64,000 bases of DNA, taken from IMG/VR virus record IMGVR_UViG_3300024272_000069; one strand, given 5' to 3'. The notes under the pieces are model-generated. The model did no database searches. It was given only the letters and a program-made list of their open reading frames with translations, and was not told the origin of the DNA. This stretch comes from a virus. Shown here one piece after another: positions 7,548 to 19,866 of the stretch (positions are counted from its first letter, which is position 1; each line of letters starts with the position of its first letter). Made by a program: the position numbers and the translations under genes.

Positions 7548-7551
7548 AATT

Positions 7552-7830
7552 ATGACCATTACTGTTGTTATCGAAGAAAATCATGGCCCTATCATTTATG
7601 CTAAGAATGATGACGCGGCAAAGCGTGCCCTGTTGGAAACGAATTGGGTAGACCAGTTCTCTGATGTATGGTGTCCTGATATGAGTGAAGATGCTCTCAT
7701 GGATGCCGGAGACTTCCGTGCATTGAAGGATGTCTATGGTGATAATTGGGAAGAGCAGTATCTTTCCTTTGATCATACTAAGCTGGAATTGATGGGTTAT
7801 CATTTTTATACCGTAGAGTTGTACGAATAA
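7552..7830 (+). CDS. hypothetical protein (92 aa)
   Basis: SD GGAAGGAG; ATG at 7552; TAA at 7828. Confidence 0.5.
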   Translation: MTITVVIEENHGPIIYAKNDDAAKRALLETNWVDQFSDVWCPDMSEDALMDAGDFRALKDVYGDNWEEQYLSFDHTKLELMGYHFYTVELYE

Positions 7831-7848
7831 TCGTACACTCCTTTTTTA

Positions 7849-7867
7849 TTAGATGTTGAACATCTAA
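7849..7867. repeat. palindrome copy 3, at a convergent gene junction with no adjacent promoter
   Basis: Between the stop of 7552-7830 (+) and the terminator of 7918-8442 (-). Confidence 0.9.
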
Positions 7868-7878
7868 AAATCGCCTAC

Positions 7879-7910
7879 AAAAAAATAACAGGGGATTTGC
7901 ATCCCCTGTT
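7879..7910 (-). terminator. intrinsic terminator (AACAGGGGAT-ttgc-ATCCCCTGTT) for minus-strand gene 7918-8442
   Basis: Perfect 10-bp stem; T-tract on the minus strand (A-tract 7879-7886 on plus). Confidence 0.7.
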
Positions 7911-7917
7911 ATTTCCA

Positions 7918-8442
7918 TCAGGCACGGCTGTAATACGGCTTGCCCTTCACGACTTCACGCTTGACCGTCTCGGCGTTGTCCGCGGCGATGTTCTTGAGGT
8001 AAGTACCCACCTGCATGACACTGACTTCGGCAAGCTCCGGAATCGCCGCCTTGATGTCGGTGGTGGTCATCGGCTCGTCAGTCAGATTGACCATGCACCA
8101 GTCCTTGACAAGCTCCTGCTCCGCGTTACGCTTCGCACGCTTCGCTTCGGCTTCGGGATCGACTTCCTTCGCCTTCTTCTCGGTCTTGGGTTTCGCGTCA
8201 TTCTCCGCACGGGCGGTGATGGCGGCATCCAGATCGAAAGCCGGAGAAGTCTTGGTGGCTTCAGTGTTCTTCACGGTGATTTCCACGGTGGCGAACACGG
8301 TGTTGCCGTTCTCGTCCTTCACGCCGGTGTCAATGGCGTAGCAGTCCTTCTTGGCAACGCGAACCGGAATCAGACCAGCAACGGAAGCGGCGATCAGGTT
8401 CTCAACAGCGGCATTGGCGGCAACACGAATCTCGTTCTTCAT
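7918..8442 (-). CDS. lysine/alanine-rich putative DNA-binding protein, paralog 2
   Basis: Shares VEITVKNTEATKTSPAFDLDAAI and MQVGTYLKNI with paralog 1; KTEKKAKEVDPEAEAKRAKR tract; TGA stop; two tandem upstream promoters (consensus TTGACA-17-TATAAT at ~8525-8555 on minus; a second next to palindrome 8650). Confidence 0.65.
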   Translation of the reverse strand: MKNEIRVAANAAVENLIAASVAGLIPVRVAKKDCYAIDTGVKDENGNTVFATVEITVKNTEATKTSPAFDLDAAITARAENDAKPKTEKKAKEVDPEAEAKRAKRNAEQELVKDWCMVNLTDEPMTTTDIKAAIPELAEVSVMQVGTYLKNIAADNAETVKREVVKGKPYYSRA

Positions 8443-8649
8443 AGGGTATCCCTTTCTGCTTTTTAGGTGGTCGCATCACCTGTCGTTTTGTTTTCCTCTC
8501 TTGAGGATGTATTCATTATACCAGAAGATTTGGAATCTGTCAAGAGTTTTTTGAAACTTTTTTCAATTTCTTTTTTCTCTTGTTCTGTTCCTCTCTCTCA
8601 GGTACGAATATAGTATACATCAAATTTTAGAAAAAGTCAATGCTTAATA

Positions 8650-8668
8650 TTAGATGTTCAACATCTAA
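8650..8668. repeat. palindrome copy 4, flanked by divergent promoters
   Basis: Rightward TTGACT(8678)-17-TATACT(8701) for 8737; leftward TTGACT-17-TATACT (8613-8641, minus) for 7918-8442. Confidence 0.9.
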
Positions 8669-8736
8669 AAATGGTTATTGACTTTTTGTTTTAGGTGTGC
8701 TATACTATCAGTACCAACTGAAAGGAAGTGCATAAA

Positions 8737-9495
8737 ATGAATGTCGTTGTATTCGACACCGAAACCGCAAACATGCAGAAACGTTTCTGCTATAATGTCG
8801 GGTATGTTATCCTTGACATTTCTACTGGTGAAAAGCTGGTGGAGCGTGACTTTGTAGTGGAGCAGATTTGGCATAATGTTGAACTGTTTGCAACTGCCTA
8901 TTATGCGGACAAGCGTGAACTGTATGTCAAGAAAATGCGTTCGCGTAAAGCGGTCATGGATAAATGGGGTTATATCATGCAAACTATGATGCGTGATTTC
9001 AAGCGGCATGAAGTGGTTTGTGCGTATGCGTATAACTCTCCATTCGATGACAAAGTGTTTACCTTTAACTGTGATTGGTTCAAAACTCAGAATCCTTTTG
9101 ACACGATTCCCATTTACGATCTTATGGGACTTGCCTGCGACTGTATCACGCAGTATGATACCTATCATAGTTACTGCGAAGAACACGAGTTTTTCACCGA
9201 ATCCGAAACCGAGTATTCCATCACCGCAGAAACAGTCTATAGGTTCATCACCGATGACCCGACTTTTGTAGAAGAACACACCGCCCTTGCGGATGCACGA
9301 ATTGAAGCAACCATTTTGATGCATTGTCTGAATATGGGGGCATATCCTGACCGAGAATATCCGGTTGTGCATCAGAAACGAGTGATTGAACGTCCGTTCA
9401 AAGTGACCGTTGATGGACAAGTTGTCGCAGAAGGAAAGTACATCAAGAAGTGGCGGCGAGGGGACATTGTTAAATATACGACAAAGAACGGATAA
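8737..9495 (+). CDS. DnaQ-like 3'-5' exonuclease (DEDDh family), paralog 1
   Basis: Motif I VVFDTETA and motif III HTALADARIE; the antisense 277-aa track ORF is an artefact. Confidence 0.7.
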   Translation: MNVVVFDTETANMQKRFCYNVGYVILDISTGEKLVERDFVVEQIWHNVELFATAYYADKRELYVKKMRSRKAVMDKWGYIMQTMMRDFKRHEVVCAYAYNSPFDDKVFTFNCDWFKTQNPFDTIPIYDLMGLACDCITQYDTYHSYCEEHEFFTESETEYSITAETVYRFITDDPTFVEEHTALADARIEATILMHCLNMGAYPDREYPVVHQKRVIERPFKVTVDGQVVAEGKYIKKWRRGDIVKYTTKNG

Positions 9496-9521
9496 CATCC
9501 GTTCTTTCTTTATGCGTGATT

Positions 9522-9540
9522 TTAGATGTTCAACATCTAA
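9522..9540. repeat. palindrome copy 5 at a convergent junction (no promoter)
   Basis: Between the stop of 8737-9495 and the minus terminator at 9553-9575. Confidence 0.9.
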
Positions 9541-9544
9541 TATA

Positions 9545-9575
9545 TAAAAAATAAGGATGATTATTCATCATCCTT
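9545..9575 (-). terminator. intrinsic terminator (AAGGATGAT-tattc-ATCATCCTT) for gene 9561-9956
   Basis: Perfect 9-bp stem; the stop codon lies in the loop; T-tract on the minus strand. Confidence 0.65.
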
Positions 9576-9956
9576 GAACATGTTTCGCATGGTTTCGTAA
9601 GTGTGCTCAAACTCCTTGAAGTCCTTCCACTCCGAATCATCGCAGTCGTAATAGTAACAACCTGCACCGTATTCAAAGGCATCCTGCCAACCATGTTTGT
9701 CCCACGGAGAGCCATAACCAACGGTACGCAGAATTTCGTGCAAGGTCGCCGCCTCTTCTGCACTGTGCGTCTTGATGTAATAGAAGTCCTCATAAACGAG
9801 ATTGTCCTCGTTCAGAAGTGGCATCGGTTCGCCGTAGCGGTCGAACAACTTGAATCCAAGATGTTCTTTGGGAATGGTGGAAACGGTTTCATACAGTTCG
9901 CAATCTTCCTCAGAATCGAACTCTTTGCCGTCATAAGCACGATAAACGATATCCAT
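9561..9956 (-). CDS. hypothetical acidic protein (131 aa)
   Basis: ORF track; SD AAAGGAG; TAA stop. Confidence 0.5.
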   Translation of the reverse strand: MDIVYRAYDGKEFDSEEDCELYETVSTIPKEHLGFKLFDRYGEPMPLLNEDNLVYEDFYYIKTHSAEEAATLHEILRTVGYGSPWDKHGWQDAFEYGAGCYYYDCDDSEWKDFKEFEHTYETMRNMFKDDE

Positions 9957-9984
9957 ATTTTTCTCCTTTCATTTGTGGAAGGTT

Positions 9985-10146
9985 TTACCCTTCCACAATC
10001 TTCCATCCATCTTTGTCAAGGTTTTCCATTAGATTGGCGGCGAAGGTTACACATTCTTCATCCGACCATCCAAGGTTGTTGCGAAGGTTGTCGCACGCCG
10101 CTTCAATCGCCGCGTTGAGTACGGTTGTCGTGATAGTCTTTTCCAT
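9985..10146 (-). CDS. small hypothetical protein (~53 aa, MEKTITTTVLNAAIEAACDNL...)
   Basis: SD AAAGGAG; promoter TTGACA-17-TAGAAT with palindrome 10215 7 nt upstream of the -35 box. Confidence 0.35.
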   Translation of the reverse strand: MEKTITTTVLNAAIEAACDNLRNNLGWSDEECVTFAANLMENLDKDGWKIVEG

Positions 10147-10214
10147 GTTGTTCGCTCCTTTTCTTTTTGTGATTATATTCTATCATAAAAAAGAGAATTT
10201 GTCAACAAATACTA

Positions 10215-10233
10215 TTAGATGTTCAACATCTAA
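10215..10233. repeat. palindrome copy 6
   Basis: Adjacent to the leftward promoter (10178-10208); ~40 nt upstream of the rightward promoter TTGACA(10274)-17-TATACT(10297). Confidence 0.9.
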
Positions 10234-10350
10234 AAATCTTTGAAAATAAAATAAAATAATTTCAAAAAACCTATTGACAAAAGTGGCAACATAGTATATA
10301 CTATAATTGTTCCAAGGAACAAAACAAATAAAAGAAAAGAGGAAACAAAC

Positions 10351-10938
10351 ATGACTAACAAGAACTTCATCAACCTGCGTTCCCACTATGTACCGGATGA
10401 AATCCGCGTCAATCCGTTGTTCAACAATGCTCAGGAGTGCTTTGATGCTATGATGCTGAGCATGGTTCAGAGATGGTATGACCGTTTGACTGACGATGCC
10501 CACAAGGCAATCAGGATTCTGAAGTTTAATCCTACTGTGGTGACTGGTATGATGTTCTTCACCGACGGTTCTATGGATGAAAAGCCGCAGTACTTCGGTA
10601 GCGACTATGAGGACATCGGCACCGAAATGAAGAACTTCGCCCTGTCTCTTGCCCAGAATGATGAAGAATACGAGAAGTGTCAGACCCGTGGTTATGTCCG
10701 CTGGTATAGCCGCATGGCTCAGTCGATCCGCTGGTATCAGAAGGGTATCGAAGATATCGAAAAGACGCACGAACTGACGCTTTCCATTCTGCCGCACGAA
10801 CTGAAAGAAAAGGTTATCGAACAGATTGTGTCTACCGATCCTGTCTGTCAGATGGCGGCACGCAACTACTATGAAGCACTGGAAGATGGACGCAAGGACA
10901 TGCTTCGCAATGCTTTGCAGAAGATGAGGGGTGTATAA
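10351..10938 (+). CDS. hypothetical protein (195 aa)
   Basis: ORF track; SD AGAGGAAA; own promoter at 10274-10302. Confidence 0.55.
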   Translation: MTNKNFINLRSHYVPDEIRVNPLFNNAQECFDAMMLSMVQRWYDRLTDDAHKAIRILKFNPTVVTGMMFFTDGSMDEKPQYFGSDYEDIGTEMKNFALSLAQNDEEYEKCQTRGYVRWYSRMAQSIRWYQKGIEDIEKTHELTLSILPHELKEKVIEQIVSTDPVCQMAARNYYEALEDGRKDMLRNALQKMRGV

Positions 10939-10960
10939 CCCCTCTTTCTTTTGCTGGAGG

Positions 10961-10979
10961 TTAGATGTTGAACATCTAA
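10961..10979. repeat. palindrome copy 7 at a convergent junction (no promoter)
   Basis: Between the stop at 10938 (+) and the minus terminator at 10992-11014. Confidence 0.9.
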
Positions 10980-10991
10980 TAATTAGAAATG

Positions 10992-11014
10992 AAAAAGAGG
11001 TCTTAATAGACCTC
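10992..11014 (-). terminator. intrinsic terminator (GAGGTC-ttaata-GACCTC + T5 on minus)
   Basis: Perfect hairpin overlapping the stop of 11003-11413; plus-strand AAAAA at 10992-10996. Confidence 0.6.
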
Positions 11015-11413
11015 AATGGAGTAGATATACTGTTCTTCTTCCTTGACGAAGGTGTTAAGCACCATGCCGGTGTCATCAACTTCAAGGAAACGACGAGTGA
11101 CCCTCTTAGAATCACGACGCATTTCAGGCATGGTCGGCTTCTTCACGGTCGGATACTTGCGGCGGCTATCATGGGAAGCATAACCAAGTCCGGCGACGCT
11201 TGCCTTGATGCTGGTGCGTTCGGTTTCATCGTCAGTCATGAGAGCGGCAATCTGAGCGGCGGTTTTGTTGGGATGATTCACCATTACGCCGCGAAGCTGT
11301 TGCAGATATTCACGATGCTCGATTTCATCTCGGACGCGGAGATCATGCAACTGCATACGAAGAATGTCCATCTCGTGGTTAGCCTTCTTGCGATTCTGGA
11401 AGTGATTTGCCAT
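11003..11413 (-). CDS. hypothetical basic protein (136 aa)
   Basis: ORF track. Confidence 0.5.
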   Translation of the reverse strand: MANHFQNRKKANHEMDILRMQLHDLRVRDEIEHREYLQQLRGVMVNHPNKTAAQIAALMTDDETERTSIKASVAGLGYASHDSRRKYPTVKKPTMPEMRRDSKRVTRRFLEVDDTGMVLNTFVKEEEQYIYSIEVY

Positions 11414-11495
11414 GTTTATTTACCTTCTTTCTTTTATTATCCCCTTGGGATGATTAGAGTATATCATAGTATAGAAAGAAAGTCAATACCTTTTA

Positions 11496-11514
11496 TTAGA
11501 TGTTCAACATCTAA
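11496..11514. repeat. palindrome copy 8
   Basis: Upstream (in minus sense) of the promoter for 11003-11413. Confidence 0.9.
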
Positions 11515-11539
11515 AAGTTTCCAATAAAAAAGGGGAGGA

Positions 11540-12532
11540 TTACTCCTCACCCATAGGAATGTCGATAATCGGAAGAGCACCAGAACCACCCATCATATAA
11601 GTCGGGAGAGTACCTTCCCAACGCTGGGCATATTCATAAGCGACGATTTCATCAGTAATTGCGGCGGCCTGTGCGGCAATGGCTTCGGCTTCCTTCTGAC
11701 CCTTATATGCGATTGCATCGGCCTCAAGCTGGGCGACTTCATAATCTGCCTGTGCCTTTACCTTTGCGGCTTCGGCATCTGCGTCGGCGTTAATCTTACG
11801 AATAGCCGCGTCATTTTCTGCCTGAATCTTGGTACGCTCGGCAAGCTGACGGGAACGCTCGGTTTCCATTGCCTGCTGGGTCTTATCGCGAAGGGCTTCC
11901 TGCTCTGCAACCTGCTTGGCTTCGATGGCATTGGTGTATGCATCGGTGAAGTCAAAGTCATCAAGGAACACCATTGCTTCAATGCCATAGTTCTGGGCAT
12001 ACGCAGAAACATGCTCATTGATTTCAGACTGAATCAGAGTACGAGTTTCGGTCATGTCTTCGGCTTCACGCAGACCAAACGCGGCCTTAACAGAGTTATT
12101 TACCTGCGGCTTGATAAGGATATTAAAGTAATCTACGCCGACAGTCTTGTAAATATTCGGTGCGGCAGAGGGAAGCAGATTATACTTTACAGTATAAGTA
12201 TAAGTCACTTCCTGAAGATCCTTACTGAAAGAGACATTAGATTCAGTAAAGGTCTGTTCCTTATTGGTCATGGTAACAATCGTCTGCCACGGCTTGTGGA
12301 AATTCAGACCATTACCAAGTGAAACATCTTCGACCCTACCGAACGTAGAAAGGATGCCCGTATGGCCGGTTGGAACGGTAGAAGTGCAAGCAAGGAACAT
12401 GGTAATGCCTGCAACAACGAGACATGCAACCATTACGATAGTACCAAGACCCTTGGCCTTCATCTTACGCAGAATCATCATGGCACACAGACCGCCGACA
12501 AGAAGGATAACGGAAAAGATAATTGCGAACAT
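11540..12532 (-). CDS. SPFH/band-7 (prohibitin/HflK-like) membrane protein
   Basis: N-terminal TM helix, then TGHTGILSTFGRVEDVSLGNGLNFHKPWQTIV (PHB-domain signature); C-terminal Ala/Glu/Gln-rich coiled-coil. Confidence 0.7.
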   Translation of the reverse strand: MFAIIFSVILLVGGLCAMMILRKMKAKGLGTIVMVACLVVAGITMFLACTSTVPTGHTGILSTFGRVEDVSLGNGLNFHKPWQTIVTMTNKEQTFTESNVSFSKDLQEVTYTYTVKYNLLPSAAPNIYKTVGVDYFNILIKPQVNNSVKAAFGLREAEDMTETRTLIQSEINEHVSAYAQNYGIEAMVFLDDFDFTDAYTNAIEAKQVAEQEALRDKTQQAMETERSRQLAERTKIQAENDAAIRKINADADAEAAKVKAQADYEVAQLEADAIAYKGQKEAEAIAAQAAAITDEIVAYEYAQRWEGTLPTYMMGGSGALPIIDIPMGEE

Positions 12533-12617
12533 TGGGATATTCTCCTTTTCTTTTTGTTCTGTTCTCTTGGAACGATATTAGTATAGCATAGGAATATGAA
12601 ATTGTCAATAATAATTA

Positions 12618-12636
12618 TTAGATGTTAAACATCTAA
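12618..12636. repeat. palindrome copy 9 (central A variant, TTAGATGTTAAACATCTAA)
   Basis: Followed in minus sense by TTGACA-17-TATACT for the SPFH gene. Confidence 0.85.
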
Positions 12637-12657
12637 TATTTCAAAGGAAAGGAAGAT

Positions 12658-13089
12658 TTAATCTTCCAGTCCGATGATGCTCATATAGTCGCAGTCCTGA
12701 CCATGAACCGCACGACAGTGAGCGATGGCCTGACCGATGATAGGATCATAACGATCTTCATCCACGTTCAGACGGGCAGTGCCCACATGCTTCTTAAGCT
12801 TGCCCCAAGTGTTAGGGATATAACCCACACAAGTGGTAATGTAGTTGGAGTGCATGTAGCGGATGTCCTGCATATGCGGACGCTCATGAATCTTCTCAAC
12901 ATACTTAGCACAAGCGTCGTGCCAAGCGTCGGCAACATCCTGACGATACTTCTTAAGGACAACGCTTCCATTGTCAAGGAAGATTTCAAGCGGCTCGCCT
13001 TCCTTGATCTTCATAACCTTGCGGATTTCCTTCGGAATAACCACACGACCGAGTTCATCAATGCGACGCACGATACCAGTACACTTCAT
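12658..13089 (-). CDS. AbrB/MazE/SpoVT-type (swapped-hairpin) DNA-binding domain protein
   Basis: N-terminus MKCTGIVRRIDELGRVVIPKEIRKVMKIKEGEPLEIFLDNGSVVLKK matches the AbrB-N fold signature. Confidence 0.65.
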   Translation of the reverse strand: MKCTGIVRRIDELGRVVIPKEIRKVMKIKEGEPLEIFLDNGSVVLKKYRQDVADAWHDACAKYVEKIHERPHMQDIRYMHSNYITTCVGYIPNTWGKLKKHVGTARLNVDEDRYDPIIGQAIAHCRAVHGQDCDYMSIIGLED

Positions 13090-13105
13090 AATTCATTTTC
13101 CTTTC

Positions 13106-13264
13106 TTACTTCTTCTTATAGGCAGTATAGGGACAGGTAGGACAGGAACAGGAATAGCCCTTCTTGGTGTTACTCCAACTCGGATAACTTGCAAGGAAGG
13201 TTGTGCCGCACTTGTAGCACTTAAATTCGATTACCTTAGGTGCGCCCGTAACTACGATAGACAT
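13106..13264 (-). CDS. small Cys-rich zinc-ribbon protein (~52 aa: CYKCG...CSCPTC)
   Basis: Below the track's size threshold; SD AGGAAA; first gene after the promoter at 13312-13341. Confidence 0.4.
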   Translation of the reverse strand: MSIVVTGAPKVIEFKCYKCGTTFLASYPSWSNTKKGYSCSCPTCPYTAYKKK

Positions 13265-13350
13265 GATACATTTTCCTTTCTGTTAGTTGTTGTGTTCCTT
13301 ACTGACAAACATAGTATAGCATAATGCTGGAGGTTTGTCAATTCTTTTTA

Positions 13351-13369
13351 TTAGATGTATTACATCTAA
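13351..13369. repeat. palindrome copy 10 (variant TTAGATGTATTACATCTAA, still a perfect palindrome)
   Basis: 9 nt upstream (minus sense) of TTGACA-N18-TATACT. Confidence 0.85.
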
Positions 13370-13376
13370 TATTGTG

Positions 13377-13447
13377 AGGGTGTGGAAGGATTTGAACCTT
13401 CCATTTAACTTCGCCCCTTAGGCAGGGCTACTATAACCTGCTCACCC
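13377..13447 (-). tRNA. tRNA-like element (possible pseudo-tRNA; contains a CUA triplet in a candidate anticodon region)
   Basis: Good acceptor stem (GGGTGAG/CACACCC, 6 of 7 pairs) and canonical T-arm GAAGG-TTCAAAT-CCTTC, but the D and anticodon arms do not fold canonically by hand; best central stem GCCC/GGGC encloses UGCCUAAG. Confidence 0.3.
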
Positions 13448-13450
13448 ATA

Positions 13451-13526
13451 TGGTGCCCGTGGAGGGGATCGAACCCTCGACACCCAGATTAAAAGTCTGG
13501 TGCTCTACCGACTGAGCTACACGAGC
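13451..13526 (-). tRNA. tRNA-Lys (anticodon UUU), CCA encoded
   Basis: GCTCGTG-TA-GCTCAGTCGGTAGAGC-A-CCAGA-CTTTTAA-TCTGG-GTGTC-GAGGGTTCGATCCCCTC-CACGGGC-ACCA; all four arms canonical. Confidence 0.9.
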
Positions 13527-13529
13527 AAG

Positions 13530-13718
13530 GAAACGGGGTCTGGCTATGCCACGTACCCCGACGTGACCGGGCGGTTGCTGTTCCTGCCCTGATGACGATT
13601 AGACTTTAACCGGCCTTCGCCGTGTTGCAACCTTCTCTCATGCAGTTCCTTTCGCGGCCAAGGTGCGCACCGTCTTGCCGCATGGTGCCGAACTCTACCC
13701 TATATACATAAGAGAATT
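13530..13718 (-). ncRNA. ~190-nt GC-rich structured spacer between tRNA-Lys and tRNA-Leu (candidate small RNA or degenerate tRNA)
   Basis: No ORF; nested stems GCGGC...GGTGCGCACC...GCCGC and CGGGGT...ACCCCG; ends with GGCACCA like the flanking tRNAs. Confidence 0.25.
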
Positions 13719-13801
13719 TGGTGCCGATGGTGGGATTTGAACCCACACGCTTTAGGCCGCAGATTTTGAGTCTGCTGTGTCTGCCGTTCCACCACACCGG
13801 C
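13719..13801 (-). tRNA. tRNA-Leu (anticodon CAA), long variable arm, CCA encoded
   Basis: GCCGGTG...GCAGA-CTCAAAA-TCTGC-GGCCTAAAGCGT-GTGGGTTCAAATCCCAC-CATCGGC-ACCA. Confidence 0.85.
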
Positions 13802-13977
13802 GTAGTCTGGGATCGTTGCCCAGTGCGGATCTCAGGAGTATTTCGGGACGCGTCCTGAGTTGGCTAAGCGCGTAGTAGCGAATTAACAACTGCTACCCCA
13901 TCGGTAAGCGTTGAGAGTTTCAAAGGTCTTAGGAAATTCATCCGACTAGGCTTTTCCTCTCTCAACCTTACATACTT

Positions 13978-14100
13978 ATTATACATCAGATTTTGAGATT
14001 TGTCAATAGTTTTTTTGAAATTCTTTTTTCTTTTTTCAACTGTTGTTTTCATCTCTCAACCTTGTAAATATAGTATACACTAAATTTTTGAAATTGTCAA
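13978..14100 (-). promoter_or_regulatory. two tandem consensus promoters driving the tRNA cluster
   Basis: P2 TTGACA(14001-14006)-17-TATAAT(13978-13983); P1 TTGACA(14095-14100)-17-TATACT(14072-14077) with palindrome 14110 9 nt upstream; the 62-aa track ORF 13864-14052 overlaps these promoters and is probably spurious. Confidence 0.7.
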
Positions 14101-14109
14101 TATTTAATT

Positions 14110-14128
14110 TTAGATGTTCAACATCTAA
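14110..14128. repeat. palindrome copy 11
   Basis: Upstream of P1 of the tRNA operon. Confidence 0.9.
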
Positions 14129-14146
14129 TATCAAAAGGAAGGTGCT

Positions 14147-14647
14147 TTACAGCACCAATCCTTCAATCGCTCGGTGAAAACTGCGGCTTGCGTCAATAGT
14201 TTTGAAATTACATTTGATATTGTCGCCAAACTTACGCCATGCCGAACGGACTTCCTTATTGTCATCGACCAAATAAGAAACATCATACGGACAATAGTTG
14301 TTGTGCATGTCCCACATAAACTGTCCCTTGTCACATCCATAGGGGATGCAAGCAAACTTACCATCAGCAAGAGCAGGGAAGAAGCGGCAAAGCCAAGCGA
14401 ATTTTGTCTCGGTAATGGCGTCCAGTTCCTCACCCCAATCAATGCCCTTGCTTGCCCAAGTGATAACGCCTACTTGCCAACCATTTTCGATCAGTGCTTC
14501 GATGGCGGCGTTGATGCGTTCAAAGTGGGCACGCGGCAAGCATTTGTCATAGACGCTCCAATCATTAGAGCGGAGAGCAGGCAACCAATCCTTGACCTTA
14601 TACAGTTCCGCGATAGTGCCATCCATGTCAAACCAAATGCTGTTCAT
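14147..14647 (-). CDS. HAD-superfamily hydrolase (possible nucleotidase)
   Basis: Motif I IWFDMDGTI (DxDGT) near the N-terminus; later YLVDDN motif. Confidence 0.65.
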   Translation of the reverse strand: MNSIWFDMDGTIAELYKVKDWLPALRSNDWSVYDKCLPRAHFERINAAIEALIENGWQVGVITWASKGIDWGEELDAITETKFAWLCRFFPALADGKFACIPYGCDKGQFMWDMHNNYCPYDVSYLVDDNKEVRSAWRKFGDNIKCNFKTIDASRSFHRAIEGLVL

Positions 14648-14750
14648 TGTGTAACCTTCTTTCTTTGTTTTTGTAATTAGATTATAGCATACCTTTGTAC
14701 CGTTGTCAATACTGTTTTTAATATTTCTTGCGTTATTTGCTGGAGGAGAA

Positions 14751-14769
14751 CTAGATGTTCAACATCTAA
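14751..14769. repeat. palindrome copy 12 (cTAGATGTTCAACATCTAA); class B promoter
   Basis: A ~42-nt conserved insert (CTCCTCCAGCAAATAACGCAAGAAATATTAAAAACAGTA) separates the palindrome from TTGACA-17-TATAAT. Confidence 0.85.
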
Positions 14770-14788
14770 AACAGAAAGAAGGGGATGA

Positions 14789-15026
14789 TTAAATCATCCC
14801 TGTACGATGGTATGCGGACTGCTGGCGACCTTGTATATACTCTTCCGCACTGATAGCAATGCAACTCATAACGCCGCGGCTATGCTTCACGCCCGGCATA
14901 CGCCTTGCGATATTCGACGCGTGAAGGGCATTCTTTGCCGCAATGTAAAAAGTGATAGAGGACGAGCGACCGCGTCCCTGATGGGCACGATGAGTAGTAA
15001 CGCGATAGTATTTCTGTCCAAGTTCC
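14789..15026 (-). CDS. small hypothetical basic protein (~79 aa, MELGQKYYRV...)
   Basis: Internal ATG with SD AAAGGAG. Confidence 0.35.
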
Positions 15027-15097
15027 ATTGTTTTTGCTCCTTTCGTTCTTTGTGAATACATTATAGCATAGATTTTTTTATTTGTCAACAATTGATT

Positions 15098-15116
15098 TTA
15101 GATGTTGAACATCTAA
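15098..15116. repeat. palindrome copy 13
   Basis: Next to TTGTCAACA at ~15081 (-35 box on minus). Confidence 0.9.
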
Positions 15117-15140
15117 TTCTTGTGCGAAAAAGATGGGATG

Positions 15141-16145
15141 TTATACATCCCATGTTGTATACATAAACTGTTCCAGTTCGTCAATCTTGCGGAGAATCTG
15201 CTTTTGATAGTTACTACATTCTTCATACTCGATGTTATCCGGCAGATAATCTTTCATCTGATTAAGAACCATGTTTGCCATTTCCCAAGTAACGCCGCGT
15301 CCTTTCATTACGAATTCAACGGTATCACCAAGCATCTTATATGGAAAGAAGACGATGCCTTGAATCAGTTTGCCACGCTTGAGAGAAGCGAACAAAAGTT
15401 CGGTTTCGATTTCAGCATCACTCAATGCGGTATGATCTTCGATGAAGTCAAACTTCTTAGAAAAGAATTGCATTGCACTTTCCGCACTAGTCGAAAAGTA
15501 AATGCCTGTATTGCTGACACGCTTGTTTTCGAGACAAGACTTTTTGTATGCCGCACAATTCAAAATGTACGTACAAGCCAGACCCCAAATATCAATCATC
15601 GGATAAGATACGCCGCGAAGAATGAAGTTGTCCTTGTCAAAGTTATGGGATTCACGCTTTGACTTTGTGCGGAGAATTTTTGCACACGCTTCCTTTTGCT
15701 GTTCTTCCCATTCGTAGTAAGAGGGGGAGTAGAGACGCTTGATATACTGTTCCGTAAAGATGATTGCTTTCTTGAAGTCAAACATTGCGTTATACGCACA
15801 AATCCAAGAACACTTGCTCAAGTCCTGAATCAGGATTTCCATAATAGTATTCCATGGCAAGATTTCGATTTCTCCACGCTCAAGCATTCCAAGATAGAGA
15901 GGACGCTTTTCGTGATAGTAAGCGGTATTGAAGATAGCAGGAACAGCGAACGTCTCAGCAACAAGATAGCTCCTACGCTCAATGATACCATGAGAACGGG
16001 TAGCAATAGTCCATCCGATATCATAAACAAGCGGCTTTGCAATAGCAATCTTCTTCTTATCATCAGAAGACAGATTCCATTCGTTCACAAAAGGAAGGGT
16101 GCAGGTCTCAGTATCGAGAATCATGTAATAAATGGGCTTGCTCAT
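15141..16145 (-). CDS. DnaQ-like 3'-5' exonuclease (DEDDh), paralog 2
   Basis: MILDTETC (motif I) and HTALSDAEIE (motif III); ICAYNAMFDFK parallels VCAYAYNSPFDDK of paralog 1. Confidence 0.7.
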   Translation of the reverse strand: MSKPIYYMILDTETCTLPFVNEWNLSSDDKKKIAIAKPLVYDIGWTIATRSHGIIERRSYLVAETFAVPAIFNTAYYHEKRPLYLGMLERGEIEILPWNTIMEILIQDLSKCSWICAYNAMFDFKKAIIFTEQYIKRLYSPSYYEWEEQQKEACAKILRTKSKRESHNFDKDNFILRGVSYPMIDIWGLACTYILNCAAYKKSCLENKRVSNTGIYFSTSAESAMQFFSKKFDFIEDHTALSDAEIETELLFASLKRGKLIQGIVFFPYKMLGDTVEFVMKGRGVTWEMANMVLNQMKDYLPDNIEYEECSNYQKQILRKIDELEQFMYTTWDV

Positions 16146-16236
16146 GGTGATTACCTTCTTTCTTAATTTCTAATAAGATTATACCATAGGCAACACCATT
16201 TGTCAACAACAATTTTTTATATTTGCTGGAGGGGAA

Positions 16237-16255
16237 TTAGATGTTGAACATCTAA
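16237..16255. repeat. palindrome copy 14
   Basis: ~30-nt gap containing CCTCCAGCAAATA, then TTGACA-17-TATAAT (minus sense). Confidence 0.9.
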
Positions 16256-16278
16256 ATTTCCCAAAGGGGAAAGGGCGA

Positions 16279-16776
16279 TTACTCGCCCTTGTAGAAGTAG
16301 TAGTTCTTGCCCTTTTCGGTACGCTTGTCAAGCACGCCAGCGGTGAACAGTTCCTTGGCATCAGAACCGACCGTCATGATGACGCACTCACCGTAGACCT
16401 CCGGCATCGCTTCCTTGATCTCGGTACAGGTATGCTCGCCGGGGTTGTCCTTCATCCACTCGGTCAGAGCCGCCTTGCGTGCTTCCTTCGCCGCCTGCTT
16501 GGCAGGGTCAGCACCAGAGGACTTCTTGGGGGTAGCCGCCTTTTCCGCCTGCTTAGCGGAAAACTCGGCGTACTCAGCGACAGCGGCATCGAAATCAAAT
16601 GCCTTGTTGACCTTGGTATCCTTGGCAAGCAGGGCGGATACCTTAACCGCGTAGTAGGTCTGAACGCCGTCAACCACATCGCCCGGAACAGCGAGGAAAT
16701 TGGAGTTAGAGCGGCGGCACATGGTAGCACCAGTGCAAGCGGTAGAGATGGTGTCGATCAGGTTCTGCATAGTCAT
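16279..16776 (-). CDS. lysine/alanine-rich putative DNA-binding protein, paralog 3
   Basis: KAFDFDAAVAEY core; AKQAEKAATPKKSSGADPAKQAAKEARKAA tract; C-terminal TCTEIKEAMPEV...MTVG... parallels paralog 2. Confidence 0.6.
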   Translation of the reverse strand: MTMQNLIDTISTACTGATMCRRSNSNFLAVPGDVVDGVQTYYAVKVSALLAKDTKVNKAFDFDAAVAEYAEFSAKQAEKAATPKKSSGADPAKQAAKEARKAALTEWMKDNPGEHTCTEIKEAMPEVYGECVIMTVGSDAKELFTAGVLDKRTEKGKNYYFYKGE

Positions 16777-16916
16777 AGGTTTCCTCTCTTTCTGCCCTTA
16801 TCAGGGCGGTCGAAGTATTTTTGTCTTACTCCCTTGGAGTGATTATAGTATACCAAATCTTTTAGAATTTGTCAACACTTATTTTAATATTTCTTTTGTT
16901 ATTTGAGGAAAGAATA

Positions 16917-16935
16917 TTAGATGTTCAACATCTAA
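16917..16935. repeat. palindrome copy 15 (class B promoter with the conserved insert)
   Basis: Insert TTCCTCAAATAACAAAAGAAATATTAAAATAAGTG, then TTGACA-17-TATACT. Confidence 0.9.
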
Positions 16936-16957
16936 TAATGAGAAAAGAAAACAAGGG

Positions 16958-17359
16958 TTATTCACCCTTGTTTTCCTCTGCCTTGCGTGCGGCTCGGGCG
17001 GCTTCTTCGGCTTCCTTCTTTGCCTTTGCCGCGGCGGCCTTCTCTGCACGCTTCTTGGCGGCTTCCTGCTTTTCCTTTTCCTTGCGTGCCTTGTTCGCGG
17101 CTACATCTTCGAGATGTTCCTGATACTGCTGGGCTTCACCATAAGCATCATAGGCTTCGCCGGAACGATCACCACGCGGAATGGAGAGCGTGAGCTTTGC
17201 AAAGATTTCGTTACCCTCTGCATCAACAGTCGGGAAAGCAATCGCGTTACCGCTGACGCGGAGAACTTCTTCTCCTTCATCAGTAAGGAACTGTGCAAGC
17301 TGAGCAAGGATTTCGTCGCGTCGCATGTTGGTGAGCTGGGTCTTGGTGAGCTTTGCCAT
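16958..17359 (-). CDS. paralog 4 of the same family: conserved core + C-terminal histone H1-like K/A/E-rich tail
   Basis: NAIAFPTVDAEGNEIFAKLTLSI aligns with AIDTGVKDENGNTVFATVEITV of paralog 2; tail KARKEKEKQEAAKKRAEKAAAAKAKKEAEEAARAARKAEE. Confidence 0.55.
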   Translation of the reverse strand: MAKLTKTQLTNMRRDEILAQLAQFLTDEGEEVLRVSGNAIAFPTVDAEGNEIFAKLTLSIPRGDRSGEAYDAYGEAQQYQEHLEDVAANKARKEKEKQEAAKKRAEKAAAAKAKKEAEEAARAARKAEENKGE

Positions 17360-17466
17360 GTTGGTTGTCTCCTTCCTTGTTCCTTTGGAACAATAACAGT
17401 ATAGCATAGTTACAGAAGTTTGTCAATAGAAAAATGAAAAAAGTTTTTAAGAAAGTCAATTCTTTA

Positions 17467-17485
17467 TTAGATGTTCAACATCTAA
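17467..17485. repeat. palindrome copy 16
   Basis: Preceded by AGTCAAT, a TTGACT -35 box on minus. Confidence 0.9.
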
Positions 17486-17606
17486 TTTTCTCAATTTTCA
17501 TTTTCTATATATATTATACCACACTTGGAAACATTTTTCAATTCGCCATTTAGACAAATATTCAAATCTGTTTTTGTAAAAAATATACAAAAGGGTGTTG
17601 CCGCCC

Positions 17607-17990
17607 TTATGTTACATAATAGTCATAAAGTGCCGGAATATGTTCGGACATGAGACGTTCTTTCGTTTCCCATCTTGGGAAGTCAAACACGCGGAAGGAT
17701 GACCCATACCATTGAATACGGATATGTTCCCAATCTTTTGTTTCGATCATTCGCATAGAAGAAACAGGGAACTTTCCACAAATAATTCCTTTTTCTTCAA
17801 AGAAACGCCAATTTTCACGCGGTTCCTTGCTTCCATAAATGGTAAACAGATTTGGAGTATATTCTTCTACGTCTCCATTAAGGAAGGTAAACACAAAGGT
17901 CGGACGAGAATAGTACGCAGTATTCAGAGGCAAGAAGATTTTTTTAATTTTTTCCCACATATTCAACGCTCCTTTCAGGGATTGCGGCAA
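17607..17990 (-). CDS. hypothetical protein (127 aa)
   Basis: ORF track. Confidence 0.45.
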   Translation of the reverse strand: MPQSLKGALNMWEKIKKIFLPLNTAYYSRPTFVFTFLNGDVEEYTPNLFTIYGSKEPRENWRFFEEKGIICGKFPVSSMRMIETKDWEHIRIQWYGSSFRVFDFPRWETKERLMSEHIPALYDYYVT

Positions 17991-18178
17991 ACTGTCGCAG
18001 TTTCATGTGTCCAATAGAATGTAGCCATCAGATCATTATTGGGGCTTACCCAGTGTTCCCACCAAAAACGCGGAGAGCCGCCAATATTGCCAGATTCTTC
18101 CAGATGCCAATTATTAGCAATCAATTCGTCGCGGCTTGCCTGATAGCCGTCAAAAGGTACGATACTCATGTTGTGCAA
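17975..18178 (-). CDS. hypothetical protein (67 aa)
   Basis: ORF track; overlaps the downstream gene by 16 nt. Confidence 0.35.
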   Translation of the reverse strand: MHNMSIVPFDGYQASRDELIANNWHLEESGNIGGSPRFWWEHWVSPNNDLMATFYWTHETATVCRNP

Positions 18179-18237
18179 CTCCTTTGCTTTGTTTTCTATA
18201 TTGTATCATATATGCTTTAATTTGTCAACAAGATTTA

Positions 18238-18256
18238 TTAGATGTTCAACATCTAA
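18238..18256. repeat. palindrome copy 17
   Basis: TTTGTCAACA at ~18221 (-35 box on minus), 7 nt away. Confidence 0.9.
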
Positions 18257-18278
18257 AACGCTGGAGGAGAAGAGGGGA

Positions 18279-18869
18279 TTATTCAATCCCCTCAATTGCT
18301 TCCATGATTGCTTGATGAATCTTGTGTACATTGGCGGTGATGAACTTCTGTGCCTGTTCTTCATCGCACTCATAGTAGTCCTTCTTATTCTGACAACGGT
18401 TCATGCAACGTGCGTGGTCAAAGATATTGTGCAGTGCATGTTCTGCCGCCTGTGCCTGTGCCTTGTTGGCAACTTCCATATACCACATCTTCTGAACAGG
18501 AGTAGCACGGTTGATGGTGTTATAACGCTGAATGATATCCTTGGTTTCACCCGGCTTCACGCCGCCGGAGATGATGGAGAAGTATACCACATGCTGACCA
18601 CGAAGCGGCTGACCCTGACTGCGAACCAGCTCCACGATCTCAGCCCATTCAGAGCGACAAGCCAGCTCCCACAGACGAGCTTCTTCCGGTTCCAGCATCA
18701 TGGAACAGATGTCATAGGTACTCAGCTTTTCGCGGCTGTACTCGATATAGTCCTTAGTACGCGGCTCAGCTTTACCAGAGAAACGAGACACAGCGTTATA
18801 GACCAGCTGAGCACGGGCGGTTTCAAGGTTCTGGGACTTGGTGGCAGGAGTGTAACGGTTGAAATACAT
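18279..18869 (-). CDS. T5orf172/MUG113-like (GIY-YIG-related) domain protein
   Basis: GQHVVYFSIISGGVKPGETKDIIQRYNTINR...AEHALHNIF fits the VY..G..K.G.T....R...EHxLH pattern; start taken at MYFNRY from track arithmetic. Confidence 0.45.
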   Translation of the reverse strand: MYFNRYTPATKSQNLETARAQLVYNAVSRFSGKAEPRTKDYIEYSREKLSTYDICSMMLEPEEARLWELACRSEWAEIVELVRSQGQPLRGQHVVYFSIISGGVKPGETKDIIQRYNTINRATPVQKMWYMEVANKAQAQAAEHALHNIFDHARCMNRCQNKKDYYECDEEQAQKFITANVHKIHQAIMEAIEGIE

Positions 18870-18957
18870 AGCATTTACCTCTTTCTTTCTGGGGTGCTTC
18901 CCCTTAATTCGTATGACTAATTCTACCACAGAAACAGATAATTGTCAATAAGGTTTT

Positions 18958-18976
18958 TTAGATGTTCAACATCTAA
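18958..18976. repeat. palindrome copy 18
   Basis: AATTGTCAATA at ~18941. Confidence 0.9.
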
Positions 18977-19145
18977 AAACTATAAAAGAGGAATAACTCT
19001 CGTTATTCCTCCATGGGTGTGACTGTGACAACCGGATCACGCATTGCCCAAAATTCGAGGGCGGTTTCGATTGCCATTTCTTCATCTTCTGCAACGCCAT
19101 CCGGCAATTCGTAGTCAACACAATCTTCGATTCTGATATTAAATC

Positions 19146-19391
19146 TCATCTGATATATCCTCCCCTGTAAATGTTACGGTTCTTTTTTCTCTGCTCACGC
19201 TTCCACTCACGCCATGCAAGCCACGCATAATAGATGACCAGAAGCACAGTACCGATGGACATAGACCACATGATGATGGTTAGAATCATTTCACGCGGTT
19301 CTACGAACTGACCAACCACAAGGCCGCAGAAAGCGGAAATAAGCCAAGTAAGAATGATGTCCCAAATAGTGTCATTAAGCATGTTTGTCAA
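19146..19391 (-). CDS. small membrane protein (2 TM helices)
   Basis: Hydrophobic segments LTWLISAFCGLVVGQF and ILTIIMWSMSIGTVLLVIYYAWLAW. Confidence 0.4.
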   Translation of the reverse strand: MTNMLNDTIWDIILTWLISAFCGLVVGQFVEPREMILTIIMWSMSIGTVLLVIYYAWLAWREWKREQRKKNRNIYRGGYIR

Positions 19392-19449
19392 CTCCCTTTA
19401 AGTTATGATTTATTATAGCATCTATTTTTGTTTTTGTCAAGAATTAAAA

Positions 19450-19468
19450 TTAGATGTTGAACATCTAA
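19450..19468. repeat. palindrome copy 19
   Basis: TTTTTGTCAAGAA at ~19431. Confidence 0.9.
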
Positions 19469-19488
19469 AAAAAGAAAGAAGTTTCTTT

Positions 19489-19755: not shown

Positions 19756-19822
19756 TTTAATTGCTCCCTTCTTTTATTGATTATAGTGTAACATAATTTT
19801 TTCTTTTTGTCAATAATAAAAA

Positions 19823-19841: not shown

Positions 19842-19866
19842 TAATAAAAAGAAGGTTGACATTATG

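What the first reader, a model, noticed from the sequence alone, without database searches (positions are those of the whole stretch)
13377..13801. Early tRNA operon lacks an obvious amber suppressor; a non-canonical tRNA-like element carries a CUA triplet
Two clean tRNAs (Lys-UUU, Leu-CAA) sit downstream of two tandem consensus promoters. Next to them is a 71-nt element with a good acceptor stem and a canonical T-arm, but its D and anticodon arms cannot be folded canonically by hand. Its central GC stem (GCCC/GGGC) encloses UGCCUAAG, which contains CUA. It is either a pseudo-tRNA or an unusual suppressor tRNA, which would be the key component of the recoding system. If it is not a suppressor, the tRNA-Sup must be encoded elsewhere in the genome or be supplied by the host. 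The ~190-nt GC-rich structured spacer between tRNA-Lys and tRNA-Leu is also unexplained.
Basis: partly seen in the sequence, partly recalled or inferred. Interest (0 to 1): 0.6.

Follow-up and report, generated by a model that had tools for sequence, protein, structure and literature searches.

The report
Decayed tRNA relic, not amber suppressor
The odd 71-base element beside two real tRNA genes in this stop-codon-recoded phage is a broken-down tRNA gene that keeps only the top half of the tRNA shape. It is not the missing tRNA that reads TAG, because sister strains lack it and still use TAG as a sense codon.

Summary
On the minus strand, two consensus promoters drive tRNA-Leu(CAA), a 192-nt GC-rich spacer, tRNA-Lys(UUU), and then, 3 nt later, a 71-nt tRNA-like element (13447-13377). 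The phage reads TAG as a sense codon, most likely Gln, in its late genes.

The suppressor reading is not supported:
- The element fails ARAGORN defaults and scores 17 bits on the Rfam tRNA model (threshold 29), with the anticodon arm skipped.
- The only register that fits a cloverleaf puts CUA at positions 32-34, giving anticodon AAG.
- A 7-nt loop centred on CUA has only a 3-bp stem, has C where U33 should be, and costs about 8 kcal/mol.
- Its G1-C72/U73 end is unlike the Gln-type suppressors of the related phage phAss-1.
- In sister strains about 93% identical (L008, L011, L031-33) it is replaced by unrelated sequence. Two of these strains show in-frame TAG: L008 has TAG where the window has CAA.

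Its T arm and acceptor 3' strand match phage tRNA-Tyr(GUA) genes exactly. It is best read as a decayed tRNA gene, at most a processing signal.

No suppressor tRNA was found in about 80 kb of a roughly 174-kb genome, so one may lie elsewhere. The spacer is neither tRNA-derived nor a recognisable ribozyme. Ordinary finding, low interest.

The parts
14110..14128 (.). 19-bp perfect palindrome TTAGATGTTCAACATCTAA just upstream of P1. It is one of 26 copies that precede early promoters.
   Evidence: 26 matches between 6952 and 23595, 0 in shuffles
14072..14100 (-). Promoter P1 (TTGACA-17-TATACT)
   Evidence: 11/12 match
13978..14006 (-). Promoter P2 (TTGACA-17-TATAAT, perfect consensus)
   Evidence: 12/12 match
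13802..13977 (-). Non-coding leader, about 175 nt. Part of it is deleted in strains L008 and L011.
   Evidence: Fold not exceptional (z = -1.07). Deletions of 35-36 nt that are not frame-consistent, in sister strains. No similarity to tRNAs beyond shuffles.
13719..13801 (-). tRNA-Leu(CAA), type II, CCA encoded
   Evidence: ARAGORN; Rfam 56.7 bits; 79% identical to the phAss-1 tRNA-Leu(UAA) that sits beside that phage's suppressor tRNAs
13634..13718 (-). Spacer module S1, about 85 nt. It is conserved in all strains as a long hairpin. It contains a repeat of the tRNA-Leu 3' end, TCGGCACCA.
   Evidence: RNAalifold: 27 pairs, one compensatory pair, several one-sided G-U-compatible changes, 5 distinct sequences
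13527..13633 (-). Spacer module S2, about 107 nt, three GC-rich hairpins. It is replaced by a different ~140-nt sequence in strain L010.
   Evidence: Not tRNA-derived. No Rfam family at E <= 10. No HDV-like or hammerhead fold.
13451..13526 (-). tRNA-Lys(UUU), CCA encoded
   Evidence: ARAGORN; Rfam 73.7 bits; identical in all strains
13377..13447 (-). tRNA-like element: intact acceptor/T-arm minihelix, degenerate D and anticodon arms, no encoded CCA
   Evidence: Absent from strains L008, L011 and L031-33. Top half identical to phage tRNA-Tyr(GUA) genes.
13351..13369 (.). Palindrome copy with a variant loop (TTAGATGTATTACATCTAA) that closes the tRNA unit. It is not followed by a U-run.
   Evidence: No terminator-like site between the element and P3.
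13313..13341 (-). Promoter P3 (TTGACA-17-TATACT with an extended -10 TG) of the next early unit

Best explanation
The 71-nt element is the remnant of a tRNA gene, probably of the phage tRNA-Tyr type, sitting at the third position of a small early tRNA operon.

It keeps the top half of a tRNA: a 7-pair acceptor stem stacked on a canonical T arm. It has lost a working D arm and anticodon arm. It does not decode UAG.

Shown: it is tRNA-derived; it fails tRNA models; no fold presents CUA as an anticodon; close strains that still use TAG as a sense codon lack it.

Inferred: it is co-transcribed with tRNA-Leu and tRNA-Lys from P1/P2. Because bacterial RNase P and the 3'-end enzymes recognise the acceptor/T minihelix, the most it probably does is act as a cleavage signal. 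That cut would trim the 3-nt trailer of tRNA-Lys and separate the tRNA part of the transcript from the downstream mRNA. It may equally be inert.

TAG is most likely read as Gln, as in other code-15 phages. The agent would then be either a suppressor tRNA in the ~94 kb of the genome I could not read or some other, unknown means.
For: 1. Predictors. ARAGORN defaults and Rfam at gathering score find only Leu and Lys. RF00005 gives the element 17.0 bits against a threshold of 29 and jumps over the anticodon arm. ARAGORN calls it only at an 80% threshold, as 'tRNA-Leu(AAG)' with a 3-bp anticodon stem and a 3-nt D loop.

2. Geometry. The cloverleaf-compatible register makes CUA = C32-U33-A34. A 7-nt loop centred on CUA has a 3-bp stem and C at position 33, and evaluates at -11.8 kcal/mol. 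The best top-half-compatible fold, a 5-bp stem with a 6-nt loop, evaluates at -19.6 kcal/mol (unconstrained MFE).

3. Identity. The element has G1-C72, U73 and no encoded CCA. The three Sup(CUA) tRNAs of the related code-15 phage phAss-1 have a weak first pair, G73, CUCUAAA-type loops and encoded CCA.

4. Dispensability. In strains L008, L011 and L031-33 (about 93% nucleotide identity where measured) an unrelated ~88-nt sequence takes its place. L008 has an in-frame TAG in a conserved 138-aa gene exactly where the window and L011 have CAA. L011 keeps the in-frame TAG of the sigma-like gene.

5. Origin. The 21-mer spanning the T loop, T-stem 3' strand and acceptor 3' strand has three exact matches across two large collections. 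Two are tRNA-Tyr(GUA) genes in phage tRNA arrays with acceptor GGGTGTG/CACACCC; the third is not a tRNA.

6. Position. It has the array spacing seen between real tRNAs in phAss-1 (CCA + 3-6 nt).

7. Turnover. tRNA content at this locus changes quickly. Relatives with 68-70% identity in the flanking gene have no tRNAs here. IMG/VR relatives carry Ser, Ile or Phe cassettes instead.
Against: - The element is 71/71 identical in strain L010, which is about 7% diverged elsewhere (chance about 0.006). This could mean selection, although cassette exchange by recombination explains it equally well at this mosaic locus.
- No transcript, processing or aminoacylation data exist.
- No canonical suppressor tRNA was found in the ~80 kb examined, so the true decoder of TAG remains unidentified.
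- Borges et al. explicitly expect some phage suppressors to be non-canonical.
- The tRNA-Tyr ancestry rests on the top half only.
Confidence: 0.72

Rival explanations
1. It is a non-canonical amber suppressor tRNA with an 8-nt or otherwise unusual anticodon loop. It would read UAG and be the key to the phage's code switch.
For: - A CUA triplet lies in the loop of the only strong internal hairpin.
- The element sits in an early, strongly promoted tRNA operon.
- No canonical Sup tRNA was found in ~80 kb.
- About 60% of TAG-recoded phages lack a detectable suppressor, and non-canonical ones have been predicted.
- A tRNA-Tyr-type ancestor is the classical source of amber suppressors (established knowledge of supF).
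Against: - C rather than U precedes CUA, and no 7-nt loop has CUA at 34-36 with more than 3 closing pairs.
- There is no G18G19 D loop, and the tRNA model skips the anticodon arm.
- G1-C72/U73 does not fit Gln identity, while the TAG/CAA polymorphism points to Gln.
- The element is absent from sister strains, two of which show in-frame TAG.
Confidence: 0.03
2. It is a functional tRNA-like small RNA that does not decode. For example, it could be a decoy or inhibitor for a host tRNA-targeting defence nuclease or tRNA-modifying enzyme, released from the operon by RNase P.
For: - The acceptor/T minihelix is perfectly preserved while the rest has diverged.
- It is 100% identical in the diverged strain L010.
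- It is co-located with tRNA-Lys(UUU), a classical target of anticodon nucleases. Phage tRNAs are proposed to counter such defences (PMC10264068).
- Presence or absence varying between strains is typical of accessory anti-defence cassettes.
Against: - There is no direct evidence.
- No homologues were found outside one strain group.
- The neighbouring gene first hinted to be a polynucleotide kinase looks instead like a HAD-type nucleotidase.
- The sequence identity can be explained by recent recombination.
Confidence: 0.15
3. It is a working but unusual elongator tRNA, tRNA-Leu(AAG) as ARAGORN calls it at relaxed threshold, that supplements CUU decoding.
For: - ARAGORN at -ps80 gives a cloverleaf with loop CUAAGGG, which has U33 and G37.
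- CTT is a common Leu codon in both early and late genes.
Against: - The anticodon stem has 3 bp with two mismatches, and the D loop is 3-5 nt without GG.
- It lacks the long variable arm and A73 of bacterial tRNA-Leu.
- An A34 anticodon is not used for Leu in bacteria (established knowledge).
- It scores 17 bits on RF00005 and is dispensable in sister strains.
Confidence: 0.05

Closest known systems
Pseudo-tRNAs and tRNA-like stable RNAs inside phage tRNA clusters, for example the small stable RNAs co-transcribed with the T4 tRNA cluster (recalled from memory, not tested here)
   Same: It sits at a tRNA position in a phage tRNA operon. It keeps the parts recognised by processing enzymes. It has no credible anticodon. 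Its presence varies between close relatives.
   Different: No product has been shown for this element. It is a single 71-nt unit whose top half is identical to phage tRNA-Tyr genes.
Suppressor tRNA(CUA) genes of code-15 (TAG to Gln) phages, e.g. phAss-1 OQ749652 (PMC10607447) and the phages surveyed by Borges et al.
   Same: The biological setting is the same: a large Bacillota-type siphovirus with TAG-recoded late genes and tRNA genes in the standard-code part of the genome. This phage's tRNA-Leu is 79% identical to the phAss-1 Leu gene that adjoins two suppressor tRNAs.
   Different: The phAss-1 suppressors are canonical cloverleaves with CUCUAAA-type loops, a weak 1-72 pair, G73 and encoded CCA. 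The element has none of these. The site syntenic to the phAss-1 Leu-Sup-Sup cluster holds only ORFs in this phage.
Phage tRNA-Tyr(GUA) genes in large tRNA arrays (L036, L042)
   Same: The T loop, T-stem 3' strand and acceptor 3' strand are identical over 21 nt. The acceptor 5' strand differs at one base, GGGTGAG against GGGTGTG.
   Different: The element has no long variable arm and no GUA anticodon loop. It has U73 instead of A73 and no CCA. The D and anticodon regions cannot be aligned.
Theta (minimal HDV-like) ribozymes that abut tRNA 3' ends in recoded gut phages (PMC10879173)
   Same: The setting is a recoded gut-type phage with structured GC-rich RNA directly downstream of a tRNA-Leu. 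Leu, Met and Sup are the tRNAs most often linked to theta ribozymes.
   Different: No HDV-like double pseudoknot lies at any tRNA 3' end here and Rfam gives no ribozyme hit. The tRNAs here encode CCA, unlike 95% of theta-associated tRNAs.

Membership tests
Canonical tRNA (Rfam RF00005 / ARAGORN default) | Covariance-model score at or above the gathering threshold, or an ARAGORN call at default settings | tested here: not met
   17.0 bits against 29. No hit at E <= 10 in the 1-kb search. Not called by default ARAGORN.
Canonical tRNA (Rfam RF00005 / ARAGORN default) | 7-bp acceptor stem stacked on a 5-bp T stem with a GTTCRANNC-type T loop | tested here: met
   6 of 7 acceptor pairs (A6.A67 mismatch). 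T arm GAAGG-UUCAAAU-CCUUC.
Canonical tRNA (Rfam RF00005 / ARAGORN default) | D arm with a G18G19-containing loop, and a 5-bp anticodon stem with a 7-nt loop carrying U33 and a purine at 37 | tested here: not met
   The D loop is 3-5 nt without GG. The best anticodon-type stem is 3 bp (ARAGORN) or a 4-5-bp stem with a 5-, 6- or 8-nt loop.
Amber suppressor tRNA(CUA) of code-15 phages | CUA at positions 34-36 of the anticodon loop | tested here: not met
   In the cloverleaf register CUA falls at 32-34. The CUA-centred loop has C33 and a 3-bp stem and is about 8 kcal/mol worse.
Amber suppressor tRNA(CUA) of code-15 phages | Gln-type identity: weak or U1-A72 first pair and G73, as in the phAss-1 suppressors | tested here: not met
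   The element has G1-C72 and U73. The phAss-1 suppressors start with A or U and end in G73 + CCA.
Amber suppressor tRNA(CUA) of code-15 phages | Present wherever the lineage uses TAG as a sense codon | tested here: not met
   Replaced by unrelated sequence in L008, L011 and L031-33. L008 and L011 carry in-frame TAG in conserved genes.
Amber suppressor tRNA(CUA) of code-15 phages | Suppression of UAG in vivo | not testable with these tools
   Needs a reporter assay or proteomics.
tRNA-derived pseudogene / tRNA-like relic | Clear partial homology to tRNA genes, at a tRNA position in an array, with loss of elements needed for decoding | tested here: met
   Local alignment to tRNA-Tyr scores 45, against a maximum of 27 in shuffles. 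Exact 21-mer matches to phage tRNA-Tyr genes. Starts 3 nt after the preceding CCA.
Theta / HDV-like ribozyme abutting a tRNA 3' end | Nested double pseudoknot (P1, P2, P3, P1.1) with a catalytic C in J4/2 and the cleavage site within 5 nt of a tRNA 3' end | tested here: not met
   My own descriptor gave 13 hits in the 851-nt region, against 0-27 in shuffles, none at 13719, 13451 or 13377. No Rfam HDV-family hit at E <= 10. The descriptor is mine, not the published RNArobo file.
tmRNA / Y-RNA-like (YrlA) tRNA-like RNAs | Family covariance-model score at threshold | tested here: not met
   YrlA 18.5 bits against 69. Permuted tmRNA about 13 bits against 47. Both hits overlap the real tRNAs.

The most novel reading that the evidence does not exclude
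If the complete ~174-kb genome encodes no canonical tRNA-Sup(CUA) at all, TAG must be decoded by something unrecognised. The candidates would then be the non-canonical RNAs of this early operon: the tRNA-like element in some strains, or the conserved S1/S2 RNAs present in nearly all strains. They could either decode directly or reprogramme a host tRNA or release factor.
Probability: 0.04. Interest if true: 0.85.

Novelty: new member of a known kind. Interest (0 to 1): 0.22.

Why it matters
How the majority of TAG-recoded phages without a detectable suppressor tRNA read TAG is an open question (Borges et al.). An odd tRNA-like gene carrying CUA in such a phage therefore deserved a proper test.

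The test comes out negative. The element is a decayed tRNA gene, and strains without it still use TAG as a sense codon. That removes a tempting false lead.

The useful residue is a well-delimited case for follow-up:
- a ~174-kb Bacillota-type code-15 phage with no suppressor in the 80 kb examined;
- a sharp early/late split in codon usage;
- a sigma-like regulator interrupted by a TAG codon.

Tried and rejected
1. Finding the rest of the genome to look for a suppressor tRNA.
- Flanks of 9.4 kb (L012) and 6.3 kb (L018) hold no tRNA.
- Chaining further failed.
- A homology search with the 2171-aa coiled-coil protein returned nothing useful.
- The single metagenome scan returned only a 1.6-kb contig.
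- The last homology search led only to relatives (L040, L041), which also have no tRNAs.

2. Relaxed ARAGORN with introns on the 80-kb composite. It gave only junk, including a 'tRNA-Pyl(CUA)' inside a gene at 15418-15497 with many mismatches.

3. The idea that the spacer and leader are decayed tRNAs, for example ex-suppressors as in the phAss-1 Leu-Sup-Sup cluster. Rejected: local alignments to 53 phage tRNAs are no better than shuffles.

4. The idea that the upstream gene is a polynucleotide kinase, forming a tRNA-repair kit. The weak PHROG hit looks like HAD-domain similarity. One homologue carries a source name of 5'(3')-deoxyribonucleotidase.

5. Ribozyme searches.
- HDV-like/theta at tRNA 3' ends: rejected.
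- Hammerhead in the window operon: none.

6. Inferring the amino acid for TAG from distant homologues (Geobacillus E3, phAss-1, SPbeta-like relatives). The sequences are too diverged to be decisive. Strain polymorphisms were more useful.

7. Searching for copies of the element in IMG/VR and in GTDB genomes. No copy was found, only tRNA-Tyr genes sharing the top half. A T-loop-plus-palindrome pattern found nothing.

Full report
**What is there**

The window is a phage segment with 38% GC. Plus-strand genes from about 25 kb onward make long ORFs only if TAG is read through: 4040, 1839 and 1002 aa, with 64, 20 and 17 in-frame TAGs. Minus-strand early genes between 1 and 20.7 kb are TAG-free. The terminase is 35-40% identical to those of large Bacillota siphoviruses. 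One of these is phAss-1, which NCBI files under 'Caudoviricetes code 15 clade'.

The finding lies on the minus strand, in this order:
- a 19-bp palindrome (14128-14110);
- promoter P1 (14100-14072) and promoter P2 (14006-13978, a perfect TTGACA-17-TATAAT);
- a ~175-nt leader;
- tRNA-Leu(CAA), 13801-13719;
- a 192-nt spacer;
- tRNA-Lys(UUU), 13526-13451;
- three bases, then the 71-nt element (13447-13377);
- a second palindrome copy (13369-13351);
- promoter P3 of the next unit.

**Is the element a tRNA?**

ARAGORN at default settings and Rfam at gathering thresholds report only Leu and Lys. In a 1-kb search at E <= 10 the tRNA model does not report the element at all. Searched alone, it scores 17.0 bits against a gathering score of 29. 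The alignment covers the acceptor stem, the T arm and a low-confidence D arm, and skips the anticodon arm.

ARAGORN calls it only when the threshold is lowered to 80%. It is then 'tRNA-Leu(AAG)' with a 3-nt D loop and a 3-bp anticodon stem flanked by two mismatches.

The minimum-free-energy fold keeps the acceptor/T minihelix and one internal hairpin, GCCCU/GGGGC with a 6-nt loop.

I evaluated explicit alternatives:
- top half plus the 5-bp hairpin: -19.6 kcal/mol;
- a four-arm cloverleaf with a 5-nt 'anticodon' loop: -17.4;
- a 7-nt loop centred on CUA: -11.8, with only three closing pairs and C in place of the near-universal U33.

In the one register that respects cloverleaf spacing, the CUA triplet is C32-U33-A34. 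It is the usual 'CU' that precedes an anticodon, plus the first anticodon base. It is not an anticodon.

**Is it needed for recoding?**

The same phage occurs in dozens of public metagenome contigs. Strains L008, L011 and L031-33 (about 93% nucleotide identity where measured) keep the promoters, tRNA-Leu, the spacer and an identical tRNA-Lys. At the element's position they carry an unrelated ~88-nt sequence made of small hairpins.

Two of these strains can be shown to read TAG as sense. In the conserved 138-aa gene at window 2668-3084(-), L008 reads PLDI-TAG-GSDVK where the window and L011 have CAA (Gln). L011 also keeps the in-frame TAG of the sigma-like gene.

So the element is dispensable for TAG decoding. 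This is the strongest argument against the suppressor reading.

The same comparison points to Gln as the meaning of TAG. So do:
- the excess of CAG/CAA-TAG exchanges among strain polymorphisms;
- a QQ-TAG-Q-TAG-Q run at the end of the tape-measure protein;
- the literature on code-15 phages.

Alignments to distant homologues were too diverged to add much.

The element's G1-C72 pair and U73, and the absence of an encoded CCA, contrast with the three phAss-1 suppressors. Those have a weak first pair, G73, CUCUAAA-type loops and encoded CCA.

**Where does it come from?**

The 21-mer covering its T loop, T-stem 3' strand and acceptor 3' strand has three exact matches in 596 Gb of GTDB genomes plus IMG/VR. 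Two are tRNA-Tyr(GUA) genes in phage-type tRNA arrays, with acceptor GGGTGTG/CACACCC. That differs by one base from the element's GGGTGAG, and the change creates the A.A mismatch. The third match is not a tRNA.

Only the top half aligns. The D, anticodon and variable regions do not.

The element starts 3 nt after the CCA of tRNA-Lys. That is the same spacing as between real tRNAs in the phAss-1 array.

tRNA content at this locus turns over fast:
- relatives with 68-70% identity in the adjacent HAD-like gene have no tRNAs here, but have other promoter-driven GC-rich non-coding inserts;
- more distant relatives have none;
- IMG/VR relatives that share the palindrome carry Ser(UGA), Ile or Phe cassettes.

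A decayed tRNA gene in such a locus is ordinary.

**How it most likely works**

Shown: the element is tRNA-derived, non-decoding and dispensable.

Inferred: no terminator-like site lies between P2 and P3, so it is probably co-transcribed with the two tRNAs and the downstream genes. Its intact acceptor/T minihelix is the substrate feature that bacterial RNase P and the 3'-end enzymes recognise (established knowledge). The most it plausibly does is provide a cleavage point that trims the 3-nt trailer of tRNA-Lys and separates the tRNAs from the downstream mRNA.

One observation argues for some constraint. The element is 71/71 identical in strain L010, which is about 7% diverged elsewhere. Cassette exchange at this visibly mosaic locus explains that equally well. 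A non-decoding function, such as a decoy for a tRNA-targeting defence, cannot be excluded. I give it 0.15.

**The suppressor question**

I found no tRNA-Sup(CUA) in the window, in 9.4 kb beyond its start, or in 6.3 kb beyond its end. Relaxed searches did not help, and Rfam found nothing further.

The site syntenic to the phAss-1 Leu-Sup-Sup cluster holds only ORFs in this phage.

The largest contig carrying the phage is 173,889 bp, and relatives are 167-175 kb. About 94 kb therefore remains unread, and attempts to reach it failed.

Absence of a detectable suppressor is itself common. Borges et al. detected TAG suppressor tRNAs in only 40% of TAG-recoded phage genomes, and two TAG-recoded relatives of phAss-1 have none.

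**The spacer**

As a whole, the 192-nt spacer folds no better than shuffled sequence (z = -1.26).

It has two modules:
- S1, the first ~85 nt. It is conserved in all strains and folds into a long hairpin with one compensatory pair and several G-U-compatible changes. It also repeats the last 9 nt of tRNA-Leu (TCGGCACCA) 27 nt downstream of the gene.
- S2, the remaining ~107 nt, made of three GC-rich hairpins. In L010 it is replaced by a different ~140-nt sequence.

Neither module resembles tRNAs or any Rfam family. Neither matches an HDV-like/theta ribozyme (context) or a hammerhead. It remains unexplained.

**Verdict**

The suppressor hypothesis is not supported. The pseudo-tRNA alternative is supported. 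This is a new member of a known kind, and interest is low.

Noticed in passing
window 6952-23595 (26 sites), e.g. 14110-14128 and 13351-13369: A 19-bp perfect palindrome, TTAGATGTT[C/G]AACATCTAA, occurs 26 times and only in the early region. It sits about 12 nt upstream of the -35 box of near-consensus promoters, roughly one per early gene. It looks like an operator for a phage regulator or an RNA hairpin punctuating early units. The same motif marks about ten IMG/VR contigs of 120-167 kb.
   Followed up: partly
window 3617-4465 (-): A sigma70 region-4-like gene has one in-frame TAG right after the HTH domain. The product would be 128 aa without suppression and 273 aa with it. The TAG is conserved in L009 and L011. 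This may be a regulator whose form depends on the code switch.
   Followed up: partly
window early genes (611-18929, - strand) against late genes (27587-63999, + strand): Codon usage splits sharply. Early genes prefer AAG (161 against 52 AAA), CTG/CTT and CAG. Late genes prefer AAA (470 against 228 AAG), TTA (440) and CAA, and hold all 126 in-frame TAGs counted. tRNA-Lys(UUU) fits late-gene demand. tRNA-Leu(CAA) reads the rare TTG codon and is not explained by codon usage.
   Followed up: partly
window 39388-51510 (+): A 4040-aa tape-measure-like protein with 64 in-frame TAG codons, with a TP901-type core around residues 480-800. This implies an exceptionally long tail.
   Followed up: no
L008/L011/L031-33, position equivalent to window 13447-13377: An alternative ~88-nt cassette, AAGACTTTGGTTCAGGTCTATG...CTCCATTCCGTTAATATGGAGAAAAACA, replaces the tRNA-like element. 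It forms four small hairpins and matches no tRNA or Rfam family. Its function is unknown.
   Followed up: partly
window 13106-13264 (-): A 52-aa CxxC...CxxC zinc-ribbon-like ORF downstream of P3 is present in the window-type strains but deleted in L008, L010 and L011.
   Followed up: no
L052 2148-2190 (IMGVR_UViG_3300032038_000007): A relative has the same operon layout: palindrome, two promoters, tRNA-Ile, a 284-nt GC-rich spacer, tRNA-Phe, palindrome. Its spacer contains a complete minimal type-I hammerhead-like motif, GCGC/CUGAUGA/GAG..CUC/GAA/ACAUUCAUGUC|GCGC. Rfam is silent on it. My descriptor finds 2 such motifs by chance in the 64-kb window when both strands are scanned.
   Followed up: partly
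window 13683-13691 (-) against 13719-13727 (-): The last 9 nt of tRNA-Leu (TCGGCACCA) are repeated 27 nt downstream, at the start of the conserved S1 module. This may be a scar of an insertion or duplication at the tRNA 3' end.
   Followed up: no
L029 18536-18747: A group I intron (Rfam 87.9 bits) lies in the terminase region of a relative with 68% identity in the HAD-like gene.
   Followed up: no
window 14147-14647 (-): The gene upstream of the operon gave a weak PHROG 'polynucleotide kinase' hit. It has 139 homologues, and one of the more distant ones is named 5'(3')-deoxyribonucleotidase by its source. It is probably a HAD-type nucleotidase rather than a tRNA-repair enzyme. In relatives, the locus downstream of it is a hotspot for non-coding RNA cassettes.
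   Followed up: partly
L012 12073-12075 against L017: Within near-identical strains, one in-frame TAG of a ~625-aa middle gene is GAG (Glu) in another strain. This is a single-base TAG/GAG polymorphism and fits a Gln/Glu exchange.
   Followed up: no
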